Source of the DNA: Peribolospora baueri
Taxonomy: Eukaryota
Length of the DNA stretch: 64,000 nt
Assembly: GCA_029717555.1 (NCBI GenBank)
Contig: JAMDHS010000001.1
Coordinates: 372,001 to 436,000, forward strand
Reading direction: 5' to 3'
Shown here: positions 39,345-58,673 of the stretch, one piece after another
How the letters are laid out: each line of letters starts with the position of its first letter
Numbering within the stretch: position 1 is the stretch's first letter
Program-made: the position numbers and the translations under genes
The notes under the pieces: generated by a model
Told to the model about the DNA's origin: nothing
Seen by the model: only the letters and a program-made list of their open reading frames with translations
Databases searched by the model: none

Positions 39345-42300
39345 TTGACCCCCGCCGGCATCCCCGACGACGACTCTCCCCAACGCCATTTCCCCGGTCC
39401 TCAGCACCAACGAGCACTCTCAGATGCAGGACCAAGATCACGAGATGGCTCCCCGACGCCCGAAGCCCCGCCGCCCAAACCTGATGCCCAGAAGGCTCTC
39501 ATCGACGCCCTTGGGTACTTCCGCGACTTCTTCCGCGCTCAGGGTTCCCGGCAGCCCTCGCAGGCCCAGGCGGCATCTCAGGCGGCTCCCCAGGCGTCGC
39601 ATCTCCGGATGGGCAACGACCCGCCGGGCTTCAGTGGTACGGACCGCTCGGCCTGCTCCGACTTCTTCTCGCATGTCGAGCTTTACTTCGAGTCAAATGC
39701 GCACATCTTCCAGAACGACGGCCTGAAGATCTTGTACGCGGCCAACCTGCTCCGTAGGCCTTCACCTGGTACTCCTCCCGCCAGGAGAAGTGGGACCTGC
39801 CCATGAATGAGTCGTTCGCCACGTTCCGTGCCGCCGTCACCGACCAATTCGGCATCCCCGACGAGCGGACGGACGTCCTCCGCCGCCTCAACCGCCTCTA
39901 CCATTAGGCTCGGTCTCCGACTACGCCAGCGAGTTCGACACCCTCGAAAGTCGGAAAGTCGGCTCAGTTGGCCCAACGAGGCCCCTTCAGAACCAATTTT
40001 ATCAGGGCCTGAAGGAGGAGATCAAGGATGAGTTGTCGCGGGTTACAGAGTTGCCGACGACGTTGAGCGGACTCGTGAGCCTGGCCGTCCAGCTGGGCAA
40101 CCGCCAACGGGAGAGAGCCGAGGAGCGCCGCGCCCCCAACTTCCACAGGGACCCGCGCTACCTCCGACCTGTGCCCAATCGGCCTTGGGCGGACCGCCAC
40201 GTCGAGCGAGCTGTCCACCCCTCAACGGCGCCCGTGCCTATGGAAGTCGATGACACGACGACGAGAAGTGCGCCTAACCACCCCCGTCGCCGCCTCAGCC
40301 CCGCTGAGAAGGATCGCCGCCGACGGGAAGGTGCCTCCACTGTGCCGCGGGTCACCAAATCGGCGACTGTCCGGAGAGATCCCGATCCCAGCGCCGCGCC
40401 TCGGGACACCTTGAGTCCGCAGGGCTCGCGCCGGCCCTCGGACGAAGCGGTCAGGCGTTCCCACCGGGCTCTGCCGGCGCCCACCGGGTCGCAGGTGCCC
40501 TATCCTGCGGCCCCGAATGGTGGCCACTTTCGCATCCAGGTGGCTCTGGTGACAAAGCCGTTCGCCCGCCCATCGATACTGTCGCCCTCCTCGATCCCGG
40601 CGCATCATCGTGCTTCATCGACCCCGACTTCTGCCAAAAGCACTGCCTCGCCCTGCGTCCGAAGCCTCACCCGATCGACATCAACGTCTTCGACGGTCGG
40701 CCCAGTGCTTCGGGCGCCATCACTCACTGGTGCTCAGCGTCAACTGGCTCCGTGAGCACCAGCCCGACGTCCGCTGGCGTGACAACGCGCTCTCCCTGCG
40801 CTGCGCGCCGTGTCTGGACCACTCTCGACCCACTACGCACGTCGTCACCGCCATGGCCACCAGCTTCGCTGTCTCCCCGTGGCCCTTGAGCCGTCGGCAC
40901 CCTTGGATGTTGCCTTCGTCAACGCCTCCGCGTTTGCAGCCCTGGCGAAGGAGGCTCCAGACGCCTCCGGCACGCTCTCCTTCCACGATGAGCCCCTCGA
41001 TTCTCTCGCCACGTTTTCCGTCGCGCCTACCCCGTTTGAGCGAGACTTGCCCGATGGTCCCGATCATGCTGCCCAGATCCGCCAGGCCAGTCCCTGCCTG
41101 TTTCCATGACCTCCTGACGGCTTTCTCCAAAGTCATGGCCGACGTGCTTCTCCCGCATCGGCCTCACGACCTTGCGATCCAACTCGAGCCCGGAGCTATA
41201 CCCCCATTCGGTCCCATCTCCGCCCTCTCGAGGCGCCCCGACCACTCCGTCGGCAGCAAGGCCAGCGACTCCGCTCCCGAGATCGTGATTCGCCCCGTCT
41301 CGGAAGCCGCCTCGAACCGCTACTCCGGCGCACTCCCGGCACCACCTGCGACTCCCGCGCTTGCGCTCGCAACCTCCTCGGACGCTCCCAACGCGGATTC
41401 CTCCGGTCTCTCCCAGCGCGACATCCTCGCTACGACTGTGACTGCCTCACCGTCCGACCCTGCCGCGATTCCCGCACATGCCCTCGCAACCTCCGTGGAC
41501 AGCCCCGAAGCGGAAGTCTCCGGTCCCTCAGCTGTGCAACCCCCGGCACTCCGACCGTGACCGCCTCGCTGTCCGCCCCTGCGCCTCGCCGTCCGACCCT
41601 CCCGCCTCGCCTTCCGGCTCCACCGTAAATCCAGATCTCCGTTCCGACATCCTGACGTACCTGCCGCACGACCCCGCCGTCGCTGAAGTCCTCACCCAGC
41701 TGCAGGCAGGAGAGGAACCGTCTCGACCCGACTTCGCATTACGAGATGGCCTCCTCACGTACAAGGAACGGGTCTACGTCCCGGATTTCGAGCCTCTGCG
41801 CGTCCGCATCCTCCAGCAGGCCCACGATTCGTCCACCGCTGGCCATCCTGGACGTGCGCGCACTTACGAGCTTGTGTACCGCAACTTTTTCTGGACTGGG
41901 CTGCGCGCTTTTGTTGATGAGTACGTTCAGACCTGCAAGACGTGCCAGCGCAACAAGCCAGTCCATCATCGCAACTTCGGCCTCTTGCAGCCGTTGCCGG
42001 TACCAAGCCGCCCTGGGGGTCCATCTCCATGGACCACATCACAGACCTCCCGCCTTCCGCCGGCTTCAATGCCATCCTCGTCGTCGTTGACCGCCTCACC
42101 AAGCAATCTCACTTCATCCCGGCCCGCAAGTCCAACACCAGCAAGGACTTGGCGCAGCAGTTCATGACCAACGTTTTCCGACTGCACGGCCTACCCGGTG
42201 ACATTGTTTCCGACCGCGGCCCGACATTCACGTCAAGGTGGTGGTCAGACCTGTTGTGTGCCCTCAACATCGAGCCCAACCTGTCGACTGCGTTCCATCC

Positions 42301-42920
42301 CCAAAGTGACGGTCAGACGGAGCGCGTGAATCAGGTGGTCGAGCAACACTTTCGCACCTTTTGCGACCACCTGCAGGACGACTGGGTGTCATGGTTACCC
42401 CACGCCGAGTTCGCCTACAACAACGCGCACCATTCGTCCATCGGCATGTCGCCGTTCTTTGCCAACTACGGTTTCCACCCGGTTTTGAGCTGACCCTCCG
42501 CGAGAGCACCAGGTACGCAAATCCATGTCCGCGGCACAAGGCACGCAAGCCAAGTACGCTAACCGGCGTCGAACGAAGGCTCCCACCTTCGAACTCGGCC
42601 AGCGTGTCTGGCTCATTCGCCGTTTCGTCCGCACCACCCGGCCCTCCGACAAGCTAGACGCAAAACGCCTCGGCCCGTTCCTGGTGCACGGACGAGTTGG
42701 TGAATCGGCATACCGGCTGGAGCTCCCCACCAATATGAAGATTCACAATGTCTTCCACGTTTCCCTCCTTGAGCCGTACCACACGAACCGACTACCCTCA
42801 AGGCCACGCTTCTCCCGCGCCGCCCGATCCCGAGGTCGACGACAACGGCGACCTACACTACGAAGTCTCGCGCATTCTCGACTCCCGTCTCCGCCGTCGC
42901 AAACTGGAATACCTGGAAGC
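39345..42920 (+). pseudogene. Frameshifted Ty3/Gypsy chromovirus gag-protease-(RT/RNaseH deleted)-integrase-truncated chromodomain
   Basis: Gag NDPPGFSGTDRSACSDFFSHVELYF; protease ALLDPGASSCFID; integrase zinc finger AHDSSTAGHPG...CKTCQ; core [26 protein letters not shown] motif; chromodomain start YEVSRILDSR. Confidence 0.9.
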
Positions 42921-43099
42921 ACGGGAAGGAGGCGAACCAGCGCGCCCTCCGCCGTCTCGAAGACGAAGCACAGCGCAGGGACGATGCTTACGTCAAGCAT
43001 GGCTTCAAGATCGGCGACAGGGTCTTACGACAGCGCGCGGCAAGAAACCACGAGTTGGAGCCCCGCTGGGATGGACCTTTCATCATCCGGTCAACCACA

Positions 43100-43535
43100 C
43101 GCTAGGGCTCCCGCCTAAGCGTAAGTGGGATCATCGCATCGACACGGGCGGAGCTCGGCAGGGGGTGCGGCCCCATTCGCCACCGGAGCATGAGGCGGTA
43201 CGGCGCTTCATTGACGAGGGTCTGGCAAACGGGACGATCGAACCCGCCGACGGCTCGCCCTGGGGATCTCGCCTATCACCCTGGTGCGGAAGAAGACCGG
43301 CGAGATTAGGGTGTGCATCGACTATCGCGCCCTGAACGCCATCACCCGCAAGAGCGCGTACCCGCTCGTCCGCATCGATGACTGCTACCAGATGCTGCGG
43401 GGTGCGCAGTTTTTTCACCTCCCTCGACCTGAAGTACGGGTACGTCCAGGTCCGCATCGCCGATGAGACAGGGAGAAGAAGACGGCGTTCGTCAGCAGGT
43501 ACGGGCACTTCCAGTTCAAGGTCATGCCCATCGCC
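43100..43535 (+). pseudogene. Reverse transcriptase N-terminal fragment, out of domain order
   Basis: LPPKRKWDHRID, RKKTGEIRVCIDYRALN, YPLVRIDD, SLDLKYGY, KTAFVSRYGHFQFKVMP, all downstream of integrase. Confidence 0.85.
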
Positions 43536-44629
43536 CCTCTGGAGGAGGAGCAACAGCAGCAAGAAGAGTCTTCCGAACTCAGTCTCATTCCTACATTTCA
43601 CCCCATTCCTTTCCTCATCTTTTTCCTTCCCGCCTTATGTCATTTCCCTCATCTTTACCCTGTTTCCTTCCCTTCTTTTCATTTTACTCCTCTTCCCCAT
43701 TTTCTTTTCCCTTTCCGCTCTCCGGGACGATCGCCTCTTCCGGACGGGGCATGTAACGATATGAGTGACCCGATCACCTTGGCCACGTGGCCGACACCGT
43801 GGGCATCGCCTGTATGGTAGTCATCTCCCCGCCGCCGGGCGCTCGTCTTGGAGGAAACACCTTTTGCACATACCTTATCCTGTTACACTTACGTGTTGAA
43901 TGCATTTGGAAATCATCAGTTCAACCTTCCAGCGTGAGCTGACAATATGTATGCAGCGCGGACCAAATTTATGCGCATGTATCTCAAACATGCGTTAAAA
44001 CACAGGAGCATCAGGCTGCACATCCATCAGCTAGAGAGGTCCTCACCAACTCAAAAAATCAACCCAGAACAATGGACTCAGAAAAACATGGTGTGACTTA
44101 TCCTCCAAGGCTGCCTTACCTGACTTGCCCAACACAAGTTGGTCCTCAGCTTAGCTCGTTGAGATCTACTGCTGGTAAAGATGTAGTAACCCAACAATTT
44201 CACGTCCTTTTCCGATCCAAAATAAATTTTTCATGTGGGGAATGTTACGTTTTTATCAAAAAATAAGAATGACTTGTGCCTCATGTAAGAGGAAGCCGTC
44301 TGTATGTTTCCTGTAAAATGGTCACTGACGCCGTAAAATTTTCTGACGGTTCCGCACCTCCTGCTTCATCCAGAATAATCCTAGCACGGCAAGTCATGAC
44401 AATCAAGCAGCTTCTCAAGTCATGGAGAAAGCACAATGGAGGGAGAGCAAGCTGGGTCGTAACCTCTATGGAAATCTAAATAATTACGCGCATGAAGGTC
44501 ATAAATTCTCTCGGAATTTTTTGCTACCATTAATCCATGCCTCCACTGGTCAGTGTCTGTCTCTCAATTCGATGGCGAACCCGTGGATATTCAAATTTTT
44601 ATGCGCATAAAAATCATTCACAGGGTAGA

Positions 44630-46085
44630 AGTAGCTATATTCGGTTGAGCGCCGCATGTCCTTCTAGTCGACTTGGCCCTTCCCTTCCCTCTCCATCCCC
44701 TTCTCCCCCAGGCTCACGCTTACGTGAGGAAGATCACTTATGGTTGCTACATAGGGGACGCTCCCCGAGCGCTCCTATATACTCGTGAGGTGTTCAGCCC
44801 TCGAATGCAGAAGAGACAGAGAGGGCGCAAGGGGTCGGGAGCTAACGGAGTGAGGAATGCTCTAACGTCCTTCCAGGGCCTGATGCGGACATAAGCGGAG
44901 ATGAACGGACCAGTGGACTGGAATCCCCGCATCACCCCCTCGTTAGGACGATTGCCCCAATCGTCACTTCGGAAACGGCTTCTATCAAACAAGAACACTA
45001 AGAGAGGCGGTTGTTCGTCGAGTGGTTAGGCGGAGGGCCACTAGCGCCGACGGTCGTCGCCGTGCTGCGTGGCTTCGTCGGCCCACCACCACTCGGCGGG
45101 TTGGGCTCCGATGGCCAGCTTGAGGCGGTCGCCGTTGACGAGGCGGCGAAGGATGTGGCCGTTGGGAGCTTCGAGCTGGTAGACCCCAGAGCTACTGGTT
45201 GACTGGATGATGAAAGGCCCATCCCAGCGGGGCTCCAACTTGTGGTTTCTTGCCGCGCGCTGTCGTAAGACCCTGTTTCCGATCTTGAAGCCATGCTCGA
45301 CGTAAGCATCGTCCCTGCGCTGTGCTTCGTCTTCGAGACGGCGGAGGGCGCGGTTGATGGGGGAGGCGCGGGTGGCGCCCGTCGTATACGAGGAAGAAGG
45401 GCGACTGGCCGTGGCTGCGTATAGCGTGCGCACGGTGCGCGAGGAGTGCGTCGCTTAGGAAGTCGTCCCATCATTTGGTGTCCTTGGTCACAAGCCTGGC
45501 GAGGATGTCGACTAGCACGAAGTTGAACTTCTCCAGCCGCCCGTTAGTCTGCGGGTGGTACGATGTGGTCGAAGGTGCCGGATGTCGAGACCACCCCACC
45601 TTCCCTGGCTTTCCTGCGGCGGCGTGTTCACGACCCTTCCTCGGCGCGGGGCGAAGAGGCCAATTGTCGACTCGAGGTCCGCGAGAGTGCGCGGGAAAGC
45701 AAGCGATCGTACTGCTTCGATCTTCTCCTCCGTTGTGGCAAGATCCGCACGATCGACCTTGTGACCAAGCATCTGGAGGCTGTGATAAGCGACGTGGCAT
45801 TTGGCTGGAGAGAGGCGAACTCCGAGTCCGCGGATGCGGGAGAAGACGTCGCGGAGGTGCTAAAAGATGCTCGTCGAACGTAGGGTTGAAGATGAAGATG
45901 TCGTCAATGTAACAGGCGACGTACTTCCAGAGAATGCCCTTGAAAGTCCATTTTGCGCTGCATCCACCCAGGACTGTTCTTGAACCCCATCATTAGGCCG
46001 ACGAAGCGTTCCTTTCCACGATGAGTATAGACGGTCGCCTTGTCACGATCATCGGGATGGATCGAGATCGGTGAGCTTGTTAAGG
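44630..46085 (-). mobile_element. Decayed Ty3/Gypsy fragment: RT piece, integrase piece, PPT and truncated 3' LTR
   Basis: IHPDDRDKAT, MGFKNSPG, YIDDIFIF; TTSYHPQTNGRLEKFN; KLEPRWDGPF. PPT GAGGGGG then LTR starting TGATGCGG at 44934, with a TATA-like motif near 44778. Confidence 0.85.
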
Positions 46086-46403
46086 CATCATTGTAGCCCT
46101 CCCCCACTTCTCTTTATGCTTTTTGTACGACACCGGAAGGCGACTGGTATCTTTAATGCGATGCCACAAACAGAAGTTGAGAATGGCAGGATGGCTCGAA
46201 GGTGTTGACGTAGACAATGTGACGTCGAAGCGGCGAAAGACCTCGAGGAAGCTGATGCAGATTATCGAGCTGGAGTCTGGTCTGGTCCCGTCTGATTTTG
46301 TTACTGAAGGTTTCGTGTTGCGATGCTCCTGAGACACGGCACGGCACGGCTGGGCAGCAGTGTCCAGTAGCTCAGAGGACCTAGAAGGCGGTAACATGGA
46401 ATT

Positions 46404-47783
46404 TCAGCTATGACCCTCTTCGTCTTCCCCAGGGCAGTCTCGGAGCATTTCCTCGCCGTTGGCGTACTCGACGCCGCACCAAAAGCAGTAGTTGTGCTGT
46501 TGGCGCAGGTAGGCAAGGGTGAGAGAGAGACGGGTGGGCGCCTAGAAGAGCCACCCGGCACAATCGATGGTTAGCTTTAGCTTTGCTCTCCATGGCGACT
46601 TGGGCCACTGTCATCGCACTCACATCAAGAGACAAAAACTTCGCCACTTCTTCGCGAAGAGAAACCCGATCCTCGGCTTTGTGGTCAAAAGTATGATCAG
46701 TACCAGCATCTTTATCTTCTGAACGAGTGGAAACCGCAAAGAAGCAAGAGTTTGAAACAGCCAGCGGAGGCGGAAGTGACACGACAGCGAGACCTACCAT
46801 CCGACCCAGTAGAGGCTATGACAGGGCTCTCTGACCCTTTCGCGACACTCCGGTCTGGCTCATCCTGATCCTCGGAGATCAGCAGAAACGAAGGAAACGT
46901 CGATGGATCTTGTGGGTCGAGCCAAAGACGATTGAACTTTAAGACAGCAGGAGCAGATTCGAAGCAGATTCACAGATTCAGTCAGCGTCTCTTAGTGAAA
47001 AGAAGCCCAGACGGATAACGAAGTTAAACAGACTTTGACTTCGCTATCCCCACCGGATCGCCTCCGGTCCAGCAACTCGCAGGTCTTTCTGGCGTCTTTG
47101 AGTCTTCCCTCGGCTCTACGCACTGCGTGTTCTCTCGCACTCCTCGCTCGAAAGTCATCTGTAGCGGCCTCCGGGAATGCAGGACTTGTGTCCGCCGATG
47201 CCGACGGCGACAACTTCGTACGTTTCGAAAGATGTCCGACACCCCCACGACCTGTGGCCATATCGGAGAGGAAGAGCAAGCTACTCAAGCTCAGTTTGAA
47301 CGATCACAGAGATGGCCCATGTGCTTTTCAGGACTGACCTGATCGCTGCTCGATACGTATTGGCTCCGCGTTTGAATCTGGATTTTTGCGTCCTAGGTCG
47401 AGGCCTGTGGGATTTGAGGGTGACTCTCGGCGTTGCTTTTTAACCGGCGGACTCTCAGCAGTCTCAAGATTCTGATCAACACTTCTTCCCAACGCCTCGC
47501 CCTGGCGATAACCCATCTTCAATAGCAGCCGCATCGCGACGCTCTGCCCCTCACTGCCTGCCTCCGATTCAAGAAGATTGCGCGCAAGGCCTTGTCTCCG
47601 GCTCTCTTCCTCTCGCTCGCGCTTGCTCTTGATCAGGCCTTTCTCGAGCGAGGCCTTCTCGGCCTGGCGACGACGCTCAGTGTACGTCTGTTGACTGAAT
47701 GCGTGCGATTCCACCGACTGAGCATCTTGCAGGAAGCGATCCGACATGAAATCCTCTTCCTCGTCTGACTCGTGGCCGGCCAT
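46404..47783 (-). CDS. G-patch domain protein with C-terminal DUF4187 (GPATCH11/CMG1-like; multi-exon)
   Basis: EEEDFMSDRFL, G-patch AMRLLLKMGYRQGEALG...GRGGVG, YLRQQHNYCFWCGVEY...CPGEDEEGHS*. Confidence 0.88.
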
Positions 47784-47915
47784 CTTGAGGAGCGTTCAGC
47801 GACGTCTGGCAATCAAAGCAGGTATGAAGCTCTTGTATAAAAGGTCTGGGAAGAAGACAGGGAAGACAGGCGGGTACGTTTTGGGGCCGTGACGGCGAGC
47901 CATCAAGCGGATGGC

Positions 47916-48091
47916 GGTGGACGCGAAAGGTCAGCTAAACTTGAAGGCCCAAACGCCACAGGACGAAATTGTAGTCCGCAGTTGGTGGGAGGCCCTTGGC
48001 AAGAGGGCAATAGTGGGGGGGAAAGCGATTGTGAAGTTCCGAGCGGGTAGGCCTTTGAAAGTGAGAAGGGAGATCGAAGGTCGGACGTAGC
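47916..48091 (+). repeat. Left copy of a ~175-bp direct duplication (partner 55090-55259)
   Basis: GGTGGACGCG...GTCGGACGTAGC in both copies; roughly 90% identical by eye, with a small indel. Confidence 0.92.
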
Positions 48092-48759
48092 TGTAACGCA
48101 CCCAAGATAGGAGATGGAGGAAGACTACTGGGTTCCATGGTGATCGGTTGGGGGCTGCAGTGGATATCACCGCCCTCTACCGACCACGTGACCTAGCCTA
48201 CATGTTGATCTGGGCCCCGTACCGTTGTGGACCACACTCCCCATCGTTCCTCCACGTCCTAGTGTTCATAGCATATATACGCCCCACGTGTATTCCTCAA
48301 TTGTTCACACAAGTCGCGCAGGCGCACGTGATTCACTCATTTCCTCTTACTCCTCCCTTGTTACTAGTCCCCTGAGCCTGGCCCCATGTATATAAGAACA
48401 GGCACTCAGGGCATCCTTGGAGGACGACCTTCACCTTACTACGACCAGCCAAATCGATCCAGTTCTCTTCATCTCGTTTCTCTCTTCTCTGTCTCTATCG
48501 CTTCCGCTGCAACAACTACTCGCTTCCATCCCATTTTCCACGACACGCGTTACATCCCCACCTTAAAAGATGCGTCGACCCGGACGCCCACGAACATGAA
48601 ATGGACGAAAACATGGGGTGAGGGAGAAACATAAAGAGAAAGATGCGAAGTCTGAGCAAAAGGGAGACAAGATGCGTCGGCCTGAACACATGAAAAGGAG
48701 CTGGAAGGGAGCAGCCGAGAGAAGATGTCCTCTTCAGTCCTGGAATTACCGCGTCTTGG

Positions 48760-49160
48760 TGATAGACAAGGGCGACGGTGCGAAGGACTTGGAGGCCGAG
48801 GAGGTTGTCGAAGAAGAGCCTGACGATCTGGAACGCGCCGAAGCCGGGGATGCTGCGCGGCGTGAAAGGTGATGAAGCTGAAGCGGATCTCGAACGATCG
48901 CGGAAAGAGAACCTTGGTGGCTTCGGCCGAGCCGTCGCCTAGGAACCGACGTCCAACGTTGTTGTCGACAAAATCGAAGAAAGGTTGCACCGATCCGGGC
49001 CTCGACTCGAAGAGCTGACGAAACTCGAGGCCGACGGTCTGGATCAGCTCGCCGTGTTGGCAGTTGCGCGTCAGCGCGGCCTGGTTGCCGATGGCCTCCG
49101 AGTCGATCGTGTCCCAGGCCTCGAGCATGGCGCCGACTTGACTCTCGTCGTGGATGGACG
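48760..49160 (-). pseudogene. RFX C-terminal dimerization-domain fragment
   Basis: QVGAMLEAWDTIDSEAIGNQAALTRNCQHGELIQ...; after a frameshift RSIPGFGAFQIVRLFFDNLL, resembling the RFX motif RSAASFGSFHLIRLLYDE. Confidence 0.7.
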
Positions 49161-49599
49161 CCGCAAAGCGCCTATGGGAATTGATACACGCCGATGTAAC
49201 GCAAGAGCAAGTGCCCGAAACGGGCGCCAAACTCGACCTCCGTCCCACCCGCCGAGCTGGGCCGAACCGGGCCCGCTGGGGAAGGCTGGGAGCGTGCGAA
49301 CGGTGACGACGGCCTCCAAACCGTCCTGCCCTCGTCCACCGCCGTGCCGTCCAGCGCGGTGCGAACCGTTTTCCGGCTGCTGCTGCTGCTGCCGCGCTGA
49401 CAAGCGACAACTCTCGTCGCTCGCAGCGCCCGCTCGATGCCGCACCGCGACCGTGCCGACGGTGTGACGGCGGAGGCTGGCGGGAGGGAGCTCGAGCGTG
49501 GTCGTCGAATCCGCGGAGGAGACGACGGCCTTGGTCTCGCGCGACGGCGCGGTCGACGCGACCGAGGGTCCGATGCTGGTAGCGCGGCGGGGCGGGCGT

Positions 49600-50340
49600 C
49601 GGGAATGACGGCGTAGGGCCTTCATGGGCACCACCCGCTGTTGCGGAGGGAGGCGTGCCGCGGCCGGTCGTCGACGCCAAGAGCGAAAGTGAGGGCGTCC
49701 GGAAGGGCCGAACATCCGGCCGGCGCGGGGAAGGCGTCCGCGCTCGAGGTCGAGGGTGAGCGGCGTGGGGGCGACACGCTCGCCGACCGCGCAGGCAGCA
49801 ACTTCTCCCGACGTAGCGCCGGCATTGACGGCGATGGGACGGGGCCCCAGATTGGAGAATAGGAGGCGAGTGGTCGAGGCGTTCACCAGAGCGTGGGCGG
49901 CGAGAATGGTGGCCTTCGGGGCGCGCGGGCGAAACGAGACGGGGAATTGAACGCCGAGGGTTGGATGCGGCCGACGTCCGCTGAGGCGAGTGTGTCGAGG
50001 CCGTATTCGGCGATGACGTCCATCCCAATGCCGATGAGAGGGGCGTAGTTCGGCAAAGGCATGAAACTCGGCTTGAAGCTCTATCTTGACGGGGTCTTTC
50101 GTCTCCGTCACGCCGTCGAGGAACGCAGTCAAAACGGCGGAGCCCTTCGTCTGGTTCGTCCCCAGGCCCTGGACCTGGACGGTGGAAGGCCGCGCGGTGC
50201 CACCCAGCCACCTGAGGAAGGCGGCGGCGATGAAGCTGAGGTACGCCGGTGTCGAGGAGCACACGGGGCCGCGTGAGTTCATGATGCGGACTGAGACGTG
50301 CGCAGGCACGCTCCTGCGGAACTCGTGGCCGCCCCCCGGG
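49600..50340 (-). pseudogene. Retroviral-type aspartic protease fragment
   Basis: VLLDTG...SFIAAAFL...VQVQGLG across frameshifts. Confidence 0.55.
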
Positions 50341-50520
50341 TTGAGCGGGGCACCGTGGTTAGAATGATATCGTCGTGATGGCGGACATGGTCAGAGGCAA
50401 GTGGAAGGGGGCGGCCGGGTTGGAATAGACGGAGTCGGCGGTGGGAGTGACGGGGTCGAGGGGGGTGACGGTGGCTTGCGGGACGTCGAGACCAGAGACG
50501 CCTCCGCCATTGCCGTTCAA

Positions 50521-51351
50521 TCATGGCGCCGGCAAAGGTTGCGGCCGCGCTGTTGGGACATCACAGAACAGGATAAGAGGCGACAGCGCGCAGACGGATC
50601 CGGCCATCCGGTGGTCGCTGTCGTCGTCCTGCTCGTCTTCGCCGTCAGAGGTGACTATGATATCGCACCGCGAGTGGCCGCCCTCTCCGCCACTGCGGCC
50701 CAGGTTGGCTTGCGCGGCGCGGGTGAACGAGCTGAGCACCTCGGCCTCGGTGGACGTCTTGGGACGAATGCTGCAGTAGTGATACTTGGAGTTGCCCCGG
50801 ACGCCCAATCGTCGTGGCTGGATGCGTGGGAAGCACAACCGGACGGCCTTTCCGAACGAGGCGCTGTTGATGCACTGGACGTCGTACTCGACACAGACGA
50901 GCTGGTACAAGTTGTAGAGGCCTTGACGAGAGACGTTGCCCTCTTCGCTAGCCACATAGCTTGCATGCAACCAAGCGTTGACGAAGCCCTGCTGTGCCTC
51001 GTCGGCGGCGCTGCTGGCGACCGCCTTTTCGACCTCGACGGACAAGCGCTCGAGGAACTCGACCCTCACGACGGGCGGCAGAGGGGGCCCGGCGGGGGTG
51101 GGAATAGGATGCAAACCACCGCCGTTGCCGTTGTCGTTGGAAGATTTATACCTCTCCGGGAGAACGCGTTCCAGGGCAGATGTCGCCCGGGCGGCAGCGG
51201 AATCGGCCGCGCTGAGGGGGGGCGGCGGGGCGGCGTCAACGAGGCCGGCGTCGGCGAAAGCCTTCAGACGCACGGTCCGGAGCCGCTCTTCGATCTCCGC
51301 CCGTCGCCTACTCTCGTCGTCGGCGCGGTCTAGTGAGGGCGTGGCCAGCAC
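50521..51351 (-). pseudogene. Uninterrupted ORF with an RFX winged-helix DNA-binding domain (Rfx1/Sak1-like), inside the retroelement mosaic
   Basis: NAWLHASY...NVSRQGLYNLY...INSASFGKAVRLCFPRIQPRRLGVRGNSKYHYCSIRP at ~50761-50985. Confidence 0.88.
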
Positions 51352-51646
51352 TGTCCGCCAAGCTGTCGATGCGCGTCAGCGTCTCCTCGTGCCGTCGGGA
51401 AAAAAAAAAAGCGGAATCCTCGGCCACGGCGCGGACGTGGACCTGGGTCGCCGCCACGAGCTCGCAAAGGCCTTGAAAACGGTCATGTCCGGTGTGTCGC
51501 CTGCGGCCGTAGCGGCCGGGTTCATCGGTCGGACGAGAGACGTGGGGTCCGAGGGACGGGAAGAAGGCCGGCTTGCCCCGACGCGGGCAGGGACATGGTG
51601 GGCGGGTCGACGACCGACGGGCGGACTGGGGAGGGCGTCAAGCGAG

Positions 51647-51761
51647 TGTAACAGAATAAGGTAAGGTGCAAAGGTGGTTTCCCCAAGACGAGCGCCCGGC
51701 GATGGGGAGATGACTACCGTACAGGCGATTCCCAGGGGTTCGGGTCACTCACCCCGTTACA
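51647..51761 (-). mobile_element. Solo mini-LTR (115 bp) of the same family as 38466-38592
   Basis: Reverse complement TGTAACGGGGTGAGTGACCCGA...CGCCTGTACGGTAGTCATCTCCCC...CCTTATTCTGTTACA. Flanks GCGAG/GCGGG, a near-TSD. Confidence 0.88.
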
Positions 51762-51769
51762 GCGGGCTC

Positions 51770-54760
51770 CGTCACCGCGATGGATATCGCCGCCGTCCAC
51801 CGCAGCCTGGCCTACCAAGATTATGTCGTCCGGGACCGTCGTCAACGTCGCTGCCTCCAATGCGTTCGCTTCCGCCTTGAGCTGATCCGGCCGCAACAGC
51901 GCCATGAAGTTCAGCACATTCGTCCGGGTCTTGCCGTTGATGGGTCGCGTGGGCGCCTCCCCCCCTCACAGACGTCGCTCCTGCGCGTCAATGCGTCGGG
52001 TTTGCCCCCCTCCAGGCCCGGTCGATAGGCGGTCGTGAAGTCGAAGTCGGCGAGCTTGGTCGCCCACCGGCTTGGCGGCGGTTGAGAAGGCGTTTCGTGA
52101 CGAACCACATCAGCGCTTTGTGATCGGGACTTCGACGGACGTGACGTTCCCTTCGCAGTATTGCCTCCATTCCAGGAGACACTGCACGATGGCGAGGAGT
52201 TTCTTGTCGTGGATCTCGTAGTTCTGCTCGGCTGGGTTCATCTTGCGGCTGTAGTATGCGATGGGATGGAACAAGCCGGTGTGCTTATCCGCTGGCTCGC
52301 AACACCCGCGATGGCCTGGTCTGACGCGTCAACCCCCGGTAGCGACGGGTCGAAGTGCCTGAGAAGCGGCGCGGACGTGAACCGTTCTTTGAGTTCGTCG
52401 AAGGACGCTTGCGTTCGTCCATCCCAGACCCAAGGCGGGCTCTTCCTGAGCAAGGCCGTGAGGGGCGAGCTTCGCGAACCCACGGATGAACCTCCGATAG
52501 AAATTGGCGAACCCGAGGAAGGCTTGGATGTCGTGCACGTTCCTCGGGACGAGTCAGTCCAGGACCGCCTGAACTTTGCTCTGATCCATCGAGATTCCGG
52601 ACTCATCCTTGAGGCGTTTGCAAAACACGGCGAACATGGTCGTCGTGCTCTCGTGACTGGCTGAGTAGACTAGGAGATCGTCTAAATAGATGATGAGGAA
52701 TGCGTCGAGCATGTCACGGAAGTGGTCGTTCATGAGTCGCTGAAACGACGCTGGCGCGTTGCAGTGGCCGATAGGCATGACCAGGTACTCGTAGCTGCCG
52801 TACTTCGTCTTAAACGCCGTCTTCCACTCGTCACCCTCCCTAGTTCGGAGATTCGCGAAGACGCGGGATTGGCGAAGTCGGTCGAGGAGTTCACTGATGA
52901 GTGGGATCGGGTATCGGGTCTTGGCCGTGATGCGGTTGAGCGTCTTGTAATCTACGCAGAGACGAAGTCCTCCGTCCTTCTTCTTGATGAAGAGTACTGG
53001 AGCTGCTCCAGGCGAGTTTGAGCTCCGAATGAAGCCCTTCGCGAGCATCCCATCCAATACTCCTTCAACATCTGACGTTCTTTCTCAGAGAGCGAATAAA
53101 TCGGGTGATTCGGTATCGTGCACCCTGGAACCAGAACCAGCTCGACTGCATGATCGTAGCTTCAGTGAAGCGGTAGCTGACTCGCTTTCGCCTTCAAGAA
53201 GACGCTCGCGAACTCGTGATGCTTGGACGGGATGAGGGCGCGAATCTCATCCTCGTCCTCGAGGGCGTCCTCCGGGTCTTCGTCGACATCCGCCACGTTG
53301 GCCGTATCCTGGGAGCTACCGAGCTCGACCAGGCTCGTCGTGCTGGCATGTCCTTCCAGCTGCACCAGCTGGTGAAACTCGAGAGCCGAGACGAACCGCA
53401 TATGGGGGCGCTGGAGCTCTGGCTAGCGCGTCATCCCTTGGTTCTGTCCACATTCGCCGGCTTCGTCGGTGTGTCGAATGGGACCATCGCGCCGTCGATC
53501 TGGTATCCTGGTACGACGAAGTCCAGCTGAATCCCGTTGTCGATGAGGAACGGCAAACTCAGCATGAGGTCCCAGCCGCGCGTCGGGGCAACCAAGAATG
53601 TCGCCTCTCTCGACCGCGGACTTCCTGCCAGCTTTACTCGGGCTCGGCACGCTTCAGTGAGCGTGGGTGCTTCCTTCACGGCTCCTCCGAACGGGGTGAC
53701 GGGGACTGGCTCGTTGAGCAAGTGCGCAAAGAGCGCGCCCGGACAAAGTCTTCGGAGACGAAATTCATGGACGCGGCGCAGTCGACCAGCGCCTTCGCGG
53801 GGATGGTCGCCCCGTGTCCCTGTATCTTTACGGTCGTGAACAGCAGCGGGCTGCTCTCCGGCTGGGCTCGCGGGGACGAAAGAGAAACAGAGTTGGATTC
53901 CTCCCCCTTGGTGACTACGTACACCGCATTGACCTTCGCCGCCGAACCCCTGGCCGCCGTCCTGGTGGGGCATTCCTTCGTGACGTGCCCCGGCTTGCCG
54001 CATGTGAAGCATAACCCTTGCTCCTGATACCTCTTCCTCTCCTCCTCACTCAACCGCTTCCGCCGTTCCACCTGGCCGCTGCCTGGCATCGTCGTGTCTG
54101 CCGACCCGACTGACGAGCATGGCAGCGGCGTGGGCCCCTGCAAGGCGATGAGGTCGTCGTGCTTGTCCGGCTCGCCCGTCCTCACCAGCTCGTCTTTGAC
54201 CTCCTCGTTGAGGCCGCTGTAGAACGCCTCGCGGACGCTGTCGTTCCATCCTGTGACTACGGCCAGTCTCCGGAAGTCGGCGGCGTGGACCGCTACCGAG
54301 CGGGTCCCCTGCTTGAGGTGCCGCAACTTGCGTGAGGCCATCCGCATCGCGTCGGGATCGCCGAAAGTTGCCCGAAGCTGCTGGGCGAACAGTTCGAAGT
54401 CGTCGATCCATCCCGGTGGGTGCATGGCCTCCAAATGGGGCTGTGCCCAACGGAACGCGGCGTCGCGCGGGAAGATGGCGTGGGCCACTTTGACTCGTCC
54501 GGCCCTGAACTTGTGGCGTTGCGTCAAGTGGACGAGTCGGAGCTGGCTGAGGAAGTCCTCCAGCTGGCCCTGGGAGGACTGGGCGCCGTCGAACTTGTCG
54601 GGGTTGCTCACGACCACACCCCCGGCGTCACCGTCGATGCTGTACTCTTTGACGACGGTCGGCGCCGTGAGGTTCTCCGGCTGCGAGGGAGCGGGCGTGC
54701 CGCGCCGGGCTGCGCGCTCCTCCTCCAGCTGTCGGAGCTGTTCCCGCTGAGTTTGCACCG
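51770..54760 (-). pseudogene. Frameshifted Ty3/Gypsy gag-protease-RT-RNaseH
   Basis: SNPDKFDG, zinc knuckle [76 protein letters not shown]. Confidence 0.92.
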
Positions 54761-54835
54761 TGAGTGTTGGTGTCGGTCGCGGGAACCGTATGAGAAATGA
54801 GGGGTGGGACTACTGTCGGGGACCGTACTGTCGGT

Positions 54836-55002
54836 TCTGGGTCGGCTCGAAGATGGCGAATTTCGTGAGTCGATCGACGATGACGAGGATGGACATGAAC
54901 CCTTGGCTGTCCGGCAACTGCGTGATGCGGTCCATCGATATCGACGTCCAGGGCAGCTCGGGGACCTCCAACGGTTTCAGCAGGCCCCCAAGGCTTATGC
55001 CG
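54836..55002 (-). pseudogene. Integrase fragment placed upstream of gag
   Basis: RHKP...[45 protein letters not shown]. Confidence 0.8.
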
Positions 55003-55089
55003 TGTAAACTTGGCGCGCATACATTCGTCGCACGTCTACCCTAGCTCCACTCTCTTCGAATAGGGTGATCTGGGCCACGTACCGTTACA

Positions 55090-55259
55090 GGTGGACGCGG
55101 AAGGTCAGCTAAACTTGAAGGCCCAAACGCCACGAGACGAAATTGTAGTCGGCAGGTGGTGGGTGGCCCTTGGCAAGAGGGGCAACAGTGGGGGGGGAAG
55201 CGATTGTGAAGCGGGTAGGCCTTTGAAAGTGAGCAGGGAGATCGAAAGTCGGACGTAGC
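55090..55259 (+). repeat. Right copy of the ~175-bp direct duplication
   Basis: Matches 47916-48091 and begins immediately after the GTTACA element end. Confidence 0.92.
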
Positions 55260-55578
55260 CCTGCTGAGCGACAGCGCTCGGGTCCCCTAAGTCGCACGGG
55301 GCTGCGGTTCGATCCCCGAGGCTGCCGATTTCATTTCCCCTCGGCCGACTTTCCGCTTGCATGCCGTGACGGCATTGCGATGGTGCAGTTAGGGTTACGG
55401 GTCGGCAGTGCGTGCGATGATGTAGCGCGGCGATCGGTTTCCGCCCCTCCACCGAACCACCAACCGACTGACGTCGACCCACGCATCATCGCCCCGCTCT
55501 GACTGACGCCGGCCAAGGCGCCGCGATAAGTTTTGTTGGCCGCGACATTCTTCCGCATCATCGACGATTCATACATTC

Positions 55579-57970
55579 ATGCTGGCCGCCAAGTCACTCA
55601 AGCAAGAGGATGGTAAGTAGCAGCGCGTCATGATGTTGCCCTCAGCCTCCAGAGGAGACGGGCGTCGAATTGCCTTGACGCACATACGCGTTCGGACGTC
55701 ACCGTCGCGCCGTTGTCGCTCTTCCTCTCTTTTGCTCTCACACACTGACTGGCTTCCCGCGTTTGAATGTTTGACTCTCTCGTCGCCCTGTTCTTACTGC
55801 CCTTGTCTTCCTCAGGTCCTTCCGGCGCATCCCGCCCGCCAGACCAGCCCGATCTCAACCGCGTGCCGTCGTCACCGCCGCCAAGGAACCCGAGCAAACA
55901 CGATCTCGAACCAAACCCCTTTGAACAGTCCTTCTCCTCCAAGGGTAAGCCTGACGGTGACGCATCTTCTCACGTCCGACGCCGCTCCGAGGGCTGTGCC
56001 CCTCTCGGTGGCAAGAGCAATGGGGCTGGGAGTGAAGGGGCAGCGCGCAAAGACGAGGAAAGGACCGCTCGGGCCGGGTCGGTAGCCTCGGAGGGCAAGA
56101 AAAGGTTCAAGACAGACACGCCGACTGCACCGTCGCCGAACAGCGCCGTGTCGACGCCGAAGCCGATTCTTCCGCCGCTTGCCTCGATCGCTTCGCCATC
56201 GCCCGCTATCGACGCCGCCCACTATCCGTGGGCTCTGGGGTCTGGTGGATTTACTGGCTCTCTTCGCTCGGGACCTCTCTCACCGGCTATGCTGGCGGGC
56301 CCTCAATCTTCTTCCCTTTCTGGGCCCGGAGGCACCAGCGGAACGACTTTCATGCACTTCGACCCATCGTCATTCCGTTCTGGCTTAACACCGGACATCA
56401 ATGGTCTCCGCACCGGCCTGACTCCTCTAGCGGGCGGGCCAATCTCCTTCCCACCGCCTTCGCCCAATACGGCGGCCTTTTTGGCTATGGTCACCAATTC
56501 TTCCTCCACCGCTCCCTCCTCGTCAGCGACTATTACTCCTAACACTCTCGCCGCTCTCACCGGAGCGCCTGGCTTTCCCGCACCCGGCAGCCAGCACCCT
56601 CTGTCTATCTCCTCGCAACCTCAGCAGCCGCCGGCACCGGCGCCTGACGGACGTAACGACGATGGTGGAAACCAAAACCATTTCGACGCTGCTTTTGCCA
56701 AGTCTACCGCCGGCGTTTTCCGAACCCACCGGGGGCCGGAGTGGAGAGCCCGTTCAGAAGCCAACAGGGGAGAATACGGGTATCACGGGGACGCGGCGGC
56801 CTCTGTATCTGATCCGTCCAGGCAAGAGGCATCAGGTCGTGGAGGACAGATGCATCCGGGGCCTCCTTCAGAGCAGCATCCCTCTCAAGGACAGCCGGTG
56901 GATCAGCAACACACTTCCCGCCCCGAGCCGAGCGCGGACGCCGCGGCGTCGGGTCTGTTCCTTCTCAGCCAAGCGCATCAGGAACTGACCAAGCGCGAAG
57001 ACGCAGCAGCTGCGGCCGCCGCCGCTGCGCAAGCCCTATCCGGAGTCGGCCATCCTCCGTCTGACCCGTCATCTCAAGCGAATAACAGTAAGGCGAACCG
57101 TGGTGGCAAAGGAGGGGCAAAGCCAGGAGGTACCAAAAGGAAAAAAGGAGGCGCTCAAGAAGACGCCAACGGGACCGTCACGAACCGCTCCCAAAACGGG
57201 GCTGCCAATAAGAAGACGCGGACTCGAGCAGCCTCCACCGCTAGCAGCACGTATCCGGATGGCGACGGGGAAGACGGCGAGGAAGATGAGTTGGGAGTTG
57301 GCAAGGAAGGCGGAGATGCCGGCGCGGAGGGAGATGCGAAGAAGGCGGGCGGTGCATCCGGAAAAAAGCTGGAGACTGACGAAGAAAAGCGGAGGAACTT
57401 TTTGGAAAGGAATCGCCAAGGTAAGAACCCGTCGTCTTGTATCTTCGTATGGTTGTGTTGCTTACGAAAATTCATGTGCAACCGCACTGGGGCCATTCTT
57501 CGTTCACACCTCCAGCTGCCCTTAAATGTCGGCAGCGCAAAAAGGCTTGGCTCGCGTCCTTGCAGGCCAAGGTCGAGTACCTCCAAACAGACAACGACAA
57601 TCTGCAGAACACCATCACTGCGCTCCGCGAAGAGGTCATGCATCTTAAAAACCTGTTGCTTGCTCATCGCAACTGCCCTATTAGCCTGGCGTCGGCAGCT
57701 GGCAGTCTCGAGCACGTTCCTGCCCAACATCCGCATGGGCATCCCATGGGCGTCATGCCGATAGGTATTTCTGGTGGCGGCATGGTCCCCTCGGAAGTGA
57801 GCGCCGTCAGTTACTCTGGTCCGCCACCACCTGGTATCCAACCTGGCATGGTGCATCCTCCACCGGGAATGCATGCCCAGTCTGGGCCCATTCCATTCTC
57901 GCACCCGCCTGCCCCACAGTCCATGGGTGTTTCGATGCCCGGCGGCCCCCCGGCACCAGTCCATGGGTAG
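55579..57970 (+). CDS. ATF1: ATF/CREB-family bZIP transcription factor (Atf1/AtfA-like; 3 exons)
   Basis: Exon 1 MLAAKSLKQED|GTAAGT splices in phase to 55816. DLEPNPFEQSF (OSA), SLRSGPLSPAML (HRA), RTGLTP (HRR), bZIP EEKRRNFLERNRQAALKCRQRKKAWL. Confidence 0.92.
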
Positions 57971-58489
57971 ACCTTCACCTGCGGTCCTCCGGCACCGGTC
58001 TACGGGTAGGCCTTCTTTTCACCTTTCATCTCCCCCTCCTTGGTGCTCTCTAGCCCGCAGCGCAGACGTGTACTTCGCCTGCTCCAGAGTCTCCTTGAGC
58101 CTTTCCTTTTTCCTTTCCTTTCTCGGCTTTGACGGCCATAGTAGTTTGGACCAACTTGAACACTTGTCTCAGTTTCGCCTTTCTTCCCCTTTCTGCTGGC
58201 GGGCGCCTTTTTTGTTTCGTTTGCGATTTTCAACCCCTCTTCTTCGCCTTCTTCCCTGTGTCTTCGCGCTCCTATACACGTCTTTTTGGAGCATGGTGTT
58301 TCTCTTGCCTTGCCATCTGATGTACCTGTACTCGCGGTGAACCCGTGTAATTCTCGCAATACGCATGGAATCTGGAATCCGTCTCAGGACGCGATCAAGC
58401 GCATGGCGCAGCGGCGGTTGCCGCAGCTCAGCGAGGTCGCACCGCCCGGAAAGCCGACCGAGTCGTAAACCCCTCTACTTCGACTGTCA

Positions 58490-58543
58490 CCTCGTCGAAC
58501 GCGCAAGTCAGACGTGCCTCGTCGAACGCGCAAGTCGGACGTG
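58490..58543. repeat. 27-bp tandem duplication upstream of the C2 gene
   Basis: CCTCGTCGAACGCGCAAGTC(A/G)GACGTG x2. Confidence 0.85.
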
Positions 58544-58673
58544 CGAAAGGCCACATCTATTTCTGTGGGCGCTTTCCGTTCTCGTTGGGTCGAGAGCAGC
58601 TGCTATCCAGCCGTCTACCTGCCCCATTTCCGTCCGCATTTCGCCATCTTCTTGTCCGCGCTGTTCTGCCGCC

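What the first reader, a model, noticed from the sequence alone, without database searches (positions are those of the whole stretch)
48555..51360. RFX transcription factor carried inside an LTR retroelement, directly upstream of the PPT and LTR
Seen: on the minus strand an ~830-nt uninterrupted ORF encodes an RFX DNA-binding domain (50761-50985). About 1.6 kb downstream is a frameshifted RFX dimerization-like segment (48760-49160), then a pyrimidine-rich tract, a PPT and a full 463-bp LTR. The two RFX parts are collinear and on the same strand as the gag-pol remnants; a protease fragment lies between them. Known: RFX proteins pair a winged-helix DBD with a C-terminal dimerization domain, and yeast Rfx1/Crt1 represses ribonucleotide reductase genes. 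Inference: a Gypsy family captured an RFX mRNA as an accessory ORF in the env-like position. It might act on its own LTR, or as a decoy that de-represses RNR and raises dNTPs for reverse transcription. This copy looks decayed, and a lack of introns is only suggestive because some host exons here are long.
Basis: partly seen in the sequence, partly recalled or inferred. Interest (0 to 1): 0.88.

Follow-up and report, generated by a model that had tools for sequence, protein, structure and literature searches.

The report
Dead RFX gene inside retrotransposon block
A broken copy of a cellular RFX transcription-factor gene lies as dead cargo inside a scrambled block of jumping-gene (LTR retrotransposon) DNA between two ordinary fungal-type genes; this kind of gene capture is already known, and nothing shows the copy still works.

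Summary
The main features exist. An RFX DNA-binding domain (Pfam E 6.7e-27) sits in an 855-nt open frame at 51375-50521(-). RFX B/C/dimerisation remnants lie at 49243-48759 in three frames. A purine run and a 463-nt TG..CA repeat follow at 48564-48092. The "protease fragment" is not supported.

- an internal ~115-nt LTR (51761-51647) between pol and RFX;
- a truncated 5' LTR (55089-55040);
- a 176-nt direct duplication of host intergenic DNA whose inner edges abut the two outermost LTR termini.

So a 6,998-bp composite Ty3/gypsy block, RFX included, behaves as one insertion between a G-patch gene and an Aft1-like gene.

The RFX piece is a pseudogene. It has no ATG before the domain, about 126 profile positions of the BCD region have no match, and it carries one in-frame TAG and at least two frameshifts. 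Contigs of public runs show at least two further RFX-like sequences per run. At two DNA-binding-domain residues these match homologues better than the window copy does.

Best reading (about 0.55): a host RFX fragment carried as inert cargo in a recombinant LTR element, a known kind (Bs1-like). An accessory gene in the env position, LTR binding and an RNR decoy role are unsupported. Whether other copies are LTR-linked stays open because no genome is held.

The parts
47916..48091 (.). 176-nt host intergenic segment, copy 1 of a direct duplication. Read on the minus strand it starts GCTAC right after the terminal LTR and ends CCACC.
   Evidence: 89.8% identical to 55090-55259. The similarity stops exactly at the LTR terminus 48092.
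48092..48554 (-). Terminal (3') LTR-like unit of 463 nt, TGTAACGC..GCGTTACA. Its last ~135 nt (48226-48092) are homologous to the family's short LTRs.
   Evidence: 21-mer with 1 mismatch at 48226-48206; 0 expected by chance; 3 contigs per run carry LTR-then-PBS junctions at 48092.
48555..48564 (-). PPT-like purine run AAGGTGGGGA abutting the LTR.
   Evidence: Read directly from the sequence. Function is inferred.
48565..48758 (-). Pyrimidine-rich stretch after the last BCD match. At least one other RFX copy shares it down to about 48561. It is not detectably like element A's 3' UTR.
   Evidence: variant rows 48591-48744 and their from_end values. (z 1.7; 26 of 300 shuffles reach the score).
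48759..49243 (-). RFX BCD remnants in three frames: profile 590-610 (49243-49181), 620-714 (49152-48868), 721-756 (48866-48759). There is an in-frame TAG at 49174-49172 and frameshifts near 49181-49152 and 48868-48866.
   Evidence: Exact contigs of X1 and X2 cover 48601-49269 with 0 differences.
49244..50604 (-). GC-rich linker between the DBD and the BCD. It holds a weak LPAFPS-type match (49487-49275, E 1.9). Profile positions 464-589 are not matched. A segment at 49954-50468 is skipped by one contig in each of the 4 runs.
   Evidence: joint 49953->50469 (skips 515 nt, 10 letters between). No Pfam family.
50521..51375 (-). Open frame of 284 codons with the RFX DNA-binding domain (Pfam 50985-50758; profile match 51054-50605). 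No start codon lies upstream of the domain.
   Evidence: 35 of 37 columns conserved at >=90% are kept; the window differs at L156 (S) and P187 (T).
51634..51646 (-). Possible primer-binding-site remnant after the internal LTR. Only GACGCC is shared with TGGCGACGCC of element A.
   Evidence: 759 of 20000 random 16-mers score as well, so this is weak.
51647..51761 (-). Internal short LTR, TGTAACGG..CTGTTACA.
   Evidence: 78-86% identical to 38466-38592 and 43752-43889. Those two flank element A with the 5-bp target duplication CTTAC.
51762..54809 (-). Ty3/gypsy gag-pol remnant: gag + CCHC (54809-53676), RT (53084-52554), RNase H (52669-52110), RNase H-integrase linker (to about 51770). The integrase is deleted.
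   Evidence: PF03732, PF00098, PF00078, PF17917, PF17919..
54810..55040 (-). Displaced integrase fragment upstream of gag.
   Evidence: 64% identity over 39 aa to element A's integrase core, E 2e-14. No Pfam hit at E<=1.
55040..55089 (-). Truncated 5' LTR start, TGTAACGGTACGTGGCCCAGATCA...
55090..55259 (.). Copy 2 of the 176-nt host duplication. Its CCACC end abuts the 5' LTR start.

Best explanation
The stretch 55089-48092 (6,998 bp, minus strand) is one composite, decayed Ty3/gypsy insertion in the divergent promoter region between a G-patch gene and an Aft1/Atf1-like gene. It starts with an LTR start and ends with an LTR end. It is flanked by a 176-nt duplication of the target that runs from one 5-bp integration site (GCTAC) to another (CCACC).

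That is the product expected from unequal recombination between two same-orientation elements inserted about 170 bp apart. Aberrant integration of a tandem cDNA would give the same picture.

Reading along the minus strand, the block holds:
- a scrambled gag-pol unit, closed by its own short LTR;
- then a unit made of LTR, ~285 nt of unknown origin, RFX, a purine tract and the terminal LTR.

The only recognisable content of the second unit is a fragment of a cellular RFX gene (DNA-binding domain plus part of the BCD region). That fragment is passive cargo, taken up by template switching or recombination, and it is now a pseudogene. The working RFX gene or genes are probably elsewhere in the genome.

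Shown: the anatomy, the decay, and the existence of other RFX-like sequences. Inferred: how the fragment was captured, how the block formed, and that the fragment now does nothing.
For: 1. Outer termini. TGTAACGG... at 55089 is LTR-derived (21-mer with 1 mismatch to 48226-48206, 0 expected; alignment). GCGTTACA at 48092 is a repeat boundary followed by the family's PBS in 3 contigs per run.
2. The 176-nt copies (89.8% identical) lose similarity exactly at these two termini. The 5-mers next to the LTRs differ (CCACC and GCTAC) and are the two ends of the duplicated segment. The family makes 5-bp duplications: CTTAC on both sides of element A, 38466-43889.
3. The internal LTR 51761-51647 is 78-86% identical to element A's LTRs.
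4. The RFX identity is cellular-type. The DBD scores E 1.8e-62 against a profile of 49 fungal RFX proteins, and BCD pieces score 3e-16, 1.7e-11 and 4e-5.
5. Decay:
   - no Met before the DBD;
   - an in-frame TAG and at least 2 frameshifts, confirmed letter for letter by contigs of X1 and X2;
   - profile positions 464-589 without a match;
   - 2 of 37 near-invariant DBD columns changed.
6. Other RFX-like sequences exist. 3 contigs lie at 50900 in X1, and 2-3 in X3 and X4. The 5 listed DBD differences are 3 synonymous plus L156S and L159R. S156 is the residue of 91% of 58 homologues.
7. Organism B has the same LTR-to-RFX-upstream junction: a 683-nt contig on 51060-51732. The arrangement therefore predates the split of A and B.
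Against: - The 463-nt LTR has no partner of its own length in the window. The three LTR pieces differ in length (about 50 nt truncated, 115 nt, 463 nt), so the internal architecture is not uniquely resolved.
- The PBS remnant after the internal LTR is weak: 759 of 20000 random 16-mers score as well.
- The RFX 3' flank shows no similarity to element A's 3' UTR (z 1.7), and 51633-51340 shows none to its leader (z 1.5). Nothing ties the cargo's flanks to TE sequence except their position.
- Linkage of other RFX copies to an LTR was not seen. In organism B they diverge from the window above 51349, so they are not copies of this composite at the 5' side.
- The read laying tables are cut, contig depth is not copy number, and X1 and X2 may be the sample the window came from.
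- No TE-free relative was available to show an empty site.
Confidence: 0.55

Rival explanations
1. Resident paralogue. A recent segmental duplicate of the host RFX gene lay at this locus. Independent LTR-element insertions and local rearrangements later hemmed it in and broke it. RFX was never inside a mobile unit.
For: - The flanks of RFX (51633-51340 and 48565-48758) show no TE similarity.
- Other RFX copies do not share the upstream junction.
- No PBS of convincing quality follows the internal LTR.
- The region is a TE graveyard with many deletions.
Against: Both copies of the 176-nt duplication end exactly at the outermost LTR termini, and their ends are two different 5-mers next to the LTRs. 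A duplication that existed before the insertions would have to be hit at both inner edges by chance.
Confidence: 0.2
2. A small family of non-autonomous Ty3/gypsy-derived elements carries RFX as its internal gene. Intact members elsewhere make a protein that binds DNA or poisons the host RFX dimer, and this copy is a dead member.
For: - At least two further RFX-like sequences at 80% or more in both organisms.
- One other copy shares the 3' flank down to about 48561, a few bases from the PPT (from_end values).
- One contig in X1 and X2 joins 48600 to 48226, where the short-LTR-like part begins (shorter side only 30 letters; letters between not known).
- In yeast, loss of RFX1 raises Ty1 mobility at high temperature (PMC3002893, abstract read).
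Against: - No intact copy was seen.
- None of the 59 RFX homologues found lists a retroelement Pfam family.
- No X-box in the LTRs.
- The window copy has no start codon.
- The more canonical residues of the other copies fit an ordinary host gene equally well.
Confidence: 0.15
3. Artefact. The juxtaposition of RFX and TE pieces comes from a mis-join of repeats in the assembly.
For: The short contigs of the public runs break at the repeats and none spans the whole block.
Against: - Exact contigs cover 48601-49269, 49924-50726 and 53766-54940.
- A contig of the related organism B bridges the internal LTR and the RFX upstream part, 51060-51732.
- Both 176-nt copies continue into unique host DNA within single contigs: 45323-47956 and 55104-59000.
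Confidence: 0.05

Closest known systems
Bs1 of maize and other LTR retrotransposons with transduced host-gene fragments (as described in the review PMC13317346; passages read)
   Same: Host coding fragments, none a full-length ORF, lie between the LTRs of an element that lacks (part of) its own genes. The proposed origin is read-through or template switching between co-packaged RNAs.
   Different: - Bs1 is a plant element with several copies and an expressed chimeric ORF.
- Here there is one decayed copy in a fungal-type genome and mobilisation of the cargo is not shown.
- The cargo here is a transcription-factor gene (RFX).
Complex or tandem LTR-retrotransposon insertions (LTR-internal-LTR-internal-LTR). 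Sabot and Schulman 2007, seen only as reference 39 and in the review's text. Recombinant elements whose two flanking TSDs differ are recalled from plant TE literature.
   Same: Three LTR pieces in one orientation separate two internal regions, and the outer 5-mers do not match.
   Different: The flanks here carry a 176-nt duplicated target segment, and one of the two internal regions is a host gene fragment instead of gag-pol.
Fungal RFX1/Crt1-type transcription factors (PF02257 + PF25340). Best matches are basidiomycete proteins of 785-1113 aa.
   Same: A winged-helix RFX domain (46-52% identity over about 150-175 aa by tblastn) followed collinearly by the BCD region.
   Different: Truncated at the 5' end, internally deleted and frameshifted, with an in-frame stop and no start codon. 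It is a pseudogene.
R2/CRE-like LINE elements with an RFX-type N-terminal domain, noted earlier in this scan in other genomes (e1-7499022, e1-7498021; AI notes, unchecked by me)
   Same: An RFX DNA-binding domain physically associated with a retroelement.
   Different: - There the domain is part of the element's own protein and stands alone.
- Here a cellular RFX gene with its BCD region sits as separate cargo in an LTR element, with an LTR between it and pol.

Membership tests
RFX transcription factors | RFX winged-helix DNA-binding domain (PF02257) | tested here: met
   E 6.7e-27, 94.4 bits against a cut-off of 27. 35 of 37 near-invariant columns are kept.
RFX transcription factors | Contiguous B/C/dimerisation region (PF25340) in frame with the DBD | tested here: not met
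   Only Pfam positions 135-209 and 237-268 of 270 are matched, in two frames and below the cut-off (21.5 and 12.7 bits against 24). Own-profile positions 464-589 have no match. One TAG and at least 2 frameshifts.
RFX transcription factors | Complete reading frame with a start codon | tested here: not met
   The first Met of the 284-codon frame is residue 253, after the DBD. Stops lie at 50523-50521 and 50361-50359.
Ty3/gypsy LTR retrotransposon | Direct LTRs with TG..CA termini at both ends | tested here: met
   TGTAACGG at 55089 (truncated after about 50 nt) and GCGTTACA at 48092. Lengths are unequal.
Ty3/gypsy LTR retrotransposon | gag, protease, RT, RNase H and integrase in that order | tested here: inconclusive
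   gag, CCHC, RVT_1 and RNase H are found in order. No protease family is found in this element. Integrase is present only as a displaced 39-aa match upstream of gag.
Ty3/gypsy LTR retrotransposon | Primer-binding site next to a 5' LTR | tested here: inconclusive
   The family PBS TGGCGACGCC follows element A's 5' LTR and the LTR end in 3 contigs per run. In this block there is only a GACGCC remnant after the internal LTR (759 of 20000 by chance).
Ty3/gypsy LTR retrotransposon | 4-6-bp target-site duplication | tested here: not met
   The flanking 5-mers are CCACC and GCTAC. Instead a 176-nt duplication spans both sites.
LTR elements with captured host genes (Bs1-like) | Host-derived coding fragment between LTRs | tested here: met
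   RFX at 51349-48759 lies between the LTR at 51761-51647 and the LTR at 48554-48092.
LTR elements with captured host genes (Bs1-like) | The same cargo with the same LTR junctions at several loci (proof of mobilisation) | tested here: inconclusive
   Other RFX-like contigs exist, but their flanks are not visible. No genome is held.
LTR elements with captured host genes (Bs1-like) | Cargo lacks the parental introns | not testable with these tools
   No intron is discernible in the conserved parts, but the parental gene's structure is unknown.
   0 families at E<=10. The 8 best of 418 tblastx pairs examined were all low-complexity.
R2/CRE-like LINE with an RFX domain | RFX domain fused to a non-LTR RT/endonuclease protein | tested here: not met
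   RFX is followed by its own BCD region. The only RT nearby is in a gag/RNase H gypsy context beyond an LTR.

The most novel reading that the evidence does not exclude
In this yeast-like basidiomycete lineage a small family of non-autonomous Ty3/gypsy-derived elements carries a cellular RFX gene (DBD plus dimerisation region) as its only internal gene. Intact members act in trans, for instance as a dominant-negative partner of the host RFX repressor that eases a dNTP or recombination limit on retrotransposition. The window holds a dead member caught in a recombinant.
Probability: 0.08. Interest if true: 0.8.

Novelty: new member of a known kind. Interest (0 to 1): 0.33.

Why it matters
As it stands this is a tidy example of two ordinary things: a retrotransposon picking up and dragging along a host gene fragment, and two nearby insertions recombining into a composite flanked by a long target duplication.

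It would matter more if intact RFX-bearing elements exist elsewhere. A mobile element carrying a transcription factor known in yeast to restrain Ty1 mobility (PMC3002893, abstract) would be a new kind of element-host conflict. One genome-wide search can test that directly.

The case is also a caution for annotation. A well-kept RFX domain in an open frame here is not a gene.

Tried and rejected
- Whole genome: not held, so copies could not be fetched.
- Protein databases: no near-identical RFX. The best matches were 59-60% identity among 59 longer proteins and at most 66% over 23% of the query among 7 of similar length. Other copies of this organism could not be retrieved that way.
- RNA evidence: no RNA holder listed.
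- Earlier notes of this scan: none on this genome and none by sequence.
- Protease fragment: rejected.
- tblastx of 48555-51640 against the rest of the window: only low-complexity noise in what I could read; the output was cut.
- Pyrimidine tract as TE 3' UTR: not supported (z 1.7, 26 of 300 shuffles).
- 51633-51340 as TE leader: not supported (z 1.5, 30 of 300 shuffles).
- PBS after the internal LTR: weak.
- X-box in the LTRs or anywhere in the window: 0 hits.
- Terminal inverted or direct repeats around the RFX segment that would suggest a DNA transposon or Helitron carrier: none of note.
- CpG depletion or a RIP-like signature shared by TE and RFX: none. CpG observed/expected is 0.99-1.31 everywhere except the 463-nt LTR, 0.84.
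- tRNA or other RNA gene near the target that could explain repeated integration: none. One sub-threshold lncRNA match was ignored.
- LTR of the TE fragment at 44.7-45.1 kb: unrelated to the LTRs here.
- The 88-nt skip 50519->50608 seen in another copy: I first read it as restoring the frame. On recount it runs straight into TGA and the letters between are unknown, so nothing is inferred.
- Parts of the stretch with little cover in organism B (50012-50512): not interpreted.
Full report
OBSERVATION

On the minus strand a frame of 284 codons is open from stop to stop at 51375-50521. It carries PF02257 RFX_DNA_binding at residues 131-206, i.e. 50985-50758 (E 6.7e-27, 94.4 bits). A search of longer proteins returned 59 RFX proteins. 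The best are basidiomycete proteins at 59-60% identity over the domain. All 59 list PF02257, most also PF25340, and none lists a retroelement family.

tblastn with ten of these proteins places the DBD at 51063-50539. The BCD (B/C/dimerisation) region falls at 49261-49139, 49128-48868 and 48866-48720, in three different frames.

A profile I built from 49 full-length homologues (882 positions) maps as follows:
- positions 226-380 to 51054-50605 (E 1.8e-62);
- positions 590-610 to 49243-49181 (E 4e-5);
- positions 620-714 to 49152-48868 (E 3e-16);
- positions 721-756 to 48866-48759 (E 1.7e-11).

Downstream lie a pyrimidine-rich stretch, the purine run AAGGTGGGGA (48564-48555) and a 463-nt unit (48554-48092) with inverted termini TGTAACGC..GCGTTACA.

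The protease fragment is not supported. Pfam finds no family in the relevant ORFs even at E<=10. The eight best of 418 tblastx pairs against the two protease regions of the window are off-frame low-complexity matches; I read only those eight.

THE RFX PIECE IS A PSEUDOGENE

- No Met precedes the DBD; the first is residue 253.
- The frame closes at TGA 50523-50521 and again at TAA 50361-50359.
- In the BCD region an in-frame TAG (49174-49172) replaces a residue in the conserved stretch aligned to '..YQVTQAL..' of homologues, and the frame changes twice.
- Profile positions 464-589 (about 126 columns, the first part of the BCD region) have no match in any minus-strand frame between 52300 and 48000. 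Only 32 nt separate the weak LPAFPS-type match (49487-49275, E 1.9) from the next piece.
- Contigs of two public runs reproduce 48601-49269 and 49924-50726 without a single difference, so the defects are not consensus errors of one assembly. Those runs may be the window's own sample.
- The DBD keeps 35 of 37 columns conserved at 90% or more in 58 homologues. It differs at L156 (S in 91%) and P187 (T in 100%).
- The open frame is not evidence of function. The same 3 kb, at 65.6% G+C, holds frames of 602 and 439 codons on this strand and 321 codons antisense.

A short repeat, TGTAACGG..CTGTTACA, occurs three times: 38466-38592(+), 43752-43889(+) and 51761-51647(-). The first two are 91% identical. 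They bracket a plus-strand Ty3/gypsy element with Integrase_H2C2, rve and SH3_Tf2-1. The 5-mer CTTAC stands on both outer sides, and TGGCGACGCC follows the 5' copy. They are therefore genuine LTRs of a family that makes 5-bp target duplications.

The third copy sits directly after the truncated pol of the minus-strand element, which runs gag, CCHC, RT, RNase H and the RNase H-integrase linker. It lies 270 nt upstream of the RFX frame. An LTR therefore separates gag-pol from RFX, and RFX is not an extra ORF of that unit.

THE ENDS OF THE BLOCK

Read on the minus strand, 55089-55040 begins TGTAACGGTACGTGGCCCAGATCA. This 21-mer core recurs with one mismatch at 48226-48206, inside the 463-nt unit, where none is expected by chance. 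The last ~135 nt of the 463-nt unit align with the short LTRs. So 55089 is a truncated LTR start and 48092 an LTR end.

48092 is also a true repeat boundary. In each of the four runs, three contigs continue beyond it into '...GGCGTCGCCA' (as printed on the plus strand). Its reverse complement is the PBS of element A.

Outside these termini lie two copies of a 176-nt segment, 47916-48091 and 55090-55259, 89.8% identical. Their similarity stops exactly at the two LTR termini. Read on the minus strand the segment begins GCTAC and ends CCACC. CCACC abuts the 5' LTR start and GCTAC follows the 3' LTR end.

This is what unequal crossing-over gives when two like-oriented elements inserted at GCTAC and at CCACC, about 170 bp apart, recombine. 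Non-concerted integration of a tandem cDNA is an alternative. In either case the 6,998 bp between, RFX included, came in through TE events. The site is the divergent upstream region of a G-patch gene (ATG about 47783, minus strand; PF01585) and an Aft1-like gene (55767 onward; PF11786).

About 10% divergence between the two 176-nt copies suggests the event is old. A related organism (runs X3 and X4) has a 683-nt contig bridging 51060-51732 and the same right-hand boundary near 55102.

INSIDE THE BLOCK

The gag-pol unit is scrambled. About 50 nt of LTR is followed by a displaced integrase fragment (64% identity over 39 aa to element A's integrase, E 2e-14), then gag to RNase H, then the internal LTR.

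The second unit is the internal LTR, a possible PBS remnant (only GACGCC shared; 759 of 20000 random 16-mers do as well), about 285 nt of unknown origin, the RFX fragment, the purine run and the terminal LTR.

The cargo's flanks show no detectable similarity to TE sequence. The exact history therefore cannot be fixed. It may be an RFX-only element recombined with a gag-pol element through the central LTR. It may instead be one outer element with nested pieces.

OTHER RFX COPIES

Laying the contigs of four runs (two of organism A, two of a relative, one study) shows several contigs per run on the RFX parts. At 50900 there are three in X1, two of them with another letter. In X4 three of three differ from the window.

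Summed contig depth is about 3x the flanking single-copy level on the DBD and about 2.5x on the BCD, against 4-5x on gag-pol and 7-8x on the LTR. The tool warns that this is not copy number.

Of the five DBD differences listed, three are synonymous and two change L156 to S and L159 to R. S156 is the residue of 91% of homologues. So at least one other copy is more canonical, which fits a working host gene elsewhere and free decay here.

One contig in each of the four runs skips 49954-50468. In organism B, two contigs of X4 diverge from the window above 51349, so the window copy is truncated at the 5' end relative to them.

There are hints, but no proof, of a second LTR-linked copy:
- a contig sharing 48561-48861;
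- a joint from 48600 to 48226 in X1 and X2 with only 30 letters on its shorter side.

The tables are cut, and I could not fetch the contigs or a genome.

No X-box (consensus recalled) occurs in the LTRs or anywhere in the window: 0 hits against a mean of 1.09 in shuffles. The decoy idea has only outside support: in S. cerevisiae deletion of RFX1 permits high-temperature Ty1 mobility (PMC3002893, abstract read). This copy cannot make a protein without an upstream start.

COMPARISON WITH WHAT IS KNOWN

Host-gene fragments inside LTR retrotransposons are known (maize Bs1; surveys in rice and sorghum; review PMC13317346, passages read). So are complex LTR-internal-LTR-internal-LTR insertions (Sabot and Schulman 2007, seen only as a cited reference there).

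In the listings of my two literature searches (15 of 153 and 12 of 537 papers shown) I saw no paper on an RFX cargo in an LTR element. That is a weak negative.

Earlier notes of this scan describe RFX domains in R2/CRE-like LINEs of other genomes. Those are domains of the element's own protein, which is a different situation.

VERDICT

An accessory gene in the env position, a captured whole mRNA and a present function are not supported.

Confidence is about 0.55 for a decayed captured fragment in a recombinant composite. The rivals are a resident paralogue (0.2), a dead member of an RFX-bearing element family (0.15) and an assembly artefact (0.05).

Noticed in passing
window 38466-43889 (+): A Ty3/gypsy element with unusually short LTRs (127-138 nt, 91% identical), the 5-bp target duplication CTTAC and the PBS TGGCGACGCC. 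Integrase_H2C2, rve and SH3_Tf2-1 are present and the protease match is weak. The RT is missing from its proper place, and an RT fragment (about 43336-43560) sits just before the 3' end.
   Followed up: partly
window 44700-46000 (-) and 42941-43097 / 45196-45352: Another retroelement fragment (RT tail, integrase C-terminus) on the other side of the G-patch gene. A 157-nt stretch is 96% complementary to element A's integrase C-terminal region. Its repeat boundaries at 44716 and 44776 are seen in 3-5 contigs per run. It has no similarity to the LTRs discussed here.
   Followed up: partly
window 49954-50468: A 515-nt GC-rich segment of the DBD-BCD linker is skipped by one contig in each of the four runs, with 10 other letters in its place. 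It has no Pfam match and no other copy in the window. Its origin is unknown.
   Followed up: partly
window 48555-51646: The RFX region is 65.6% G+C, richer than the TE parts (60-62%) and the host genes (54-61%). CpG is not depleted (observed/expected 1.23).
   Followed up: no
window 60472-60864 (+): Three diverged copies (70-82%) of a 90-nt unit rich in CCG/CCT codons, probably a proline-rich repeat in a coding region.
   Followed up: no
window 48092-48554: The 463-nt LTR looks composite. Positions 1-328 have no partner in the window. The last ~135 nt begin with CACAACGG, a mutated copy of the short-LTR start TGTAACGG. In the related organism four contigs diverge from it at 48505.
   Followed up: partly
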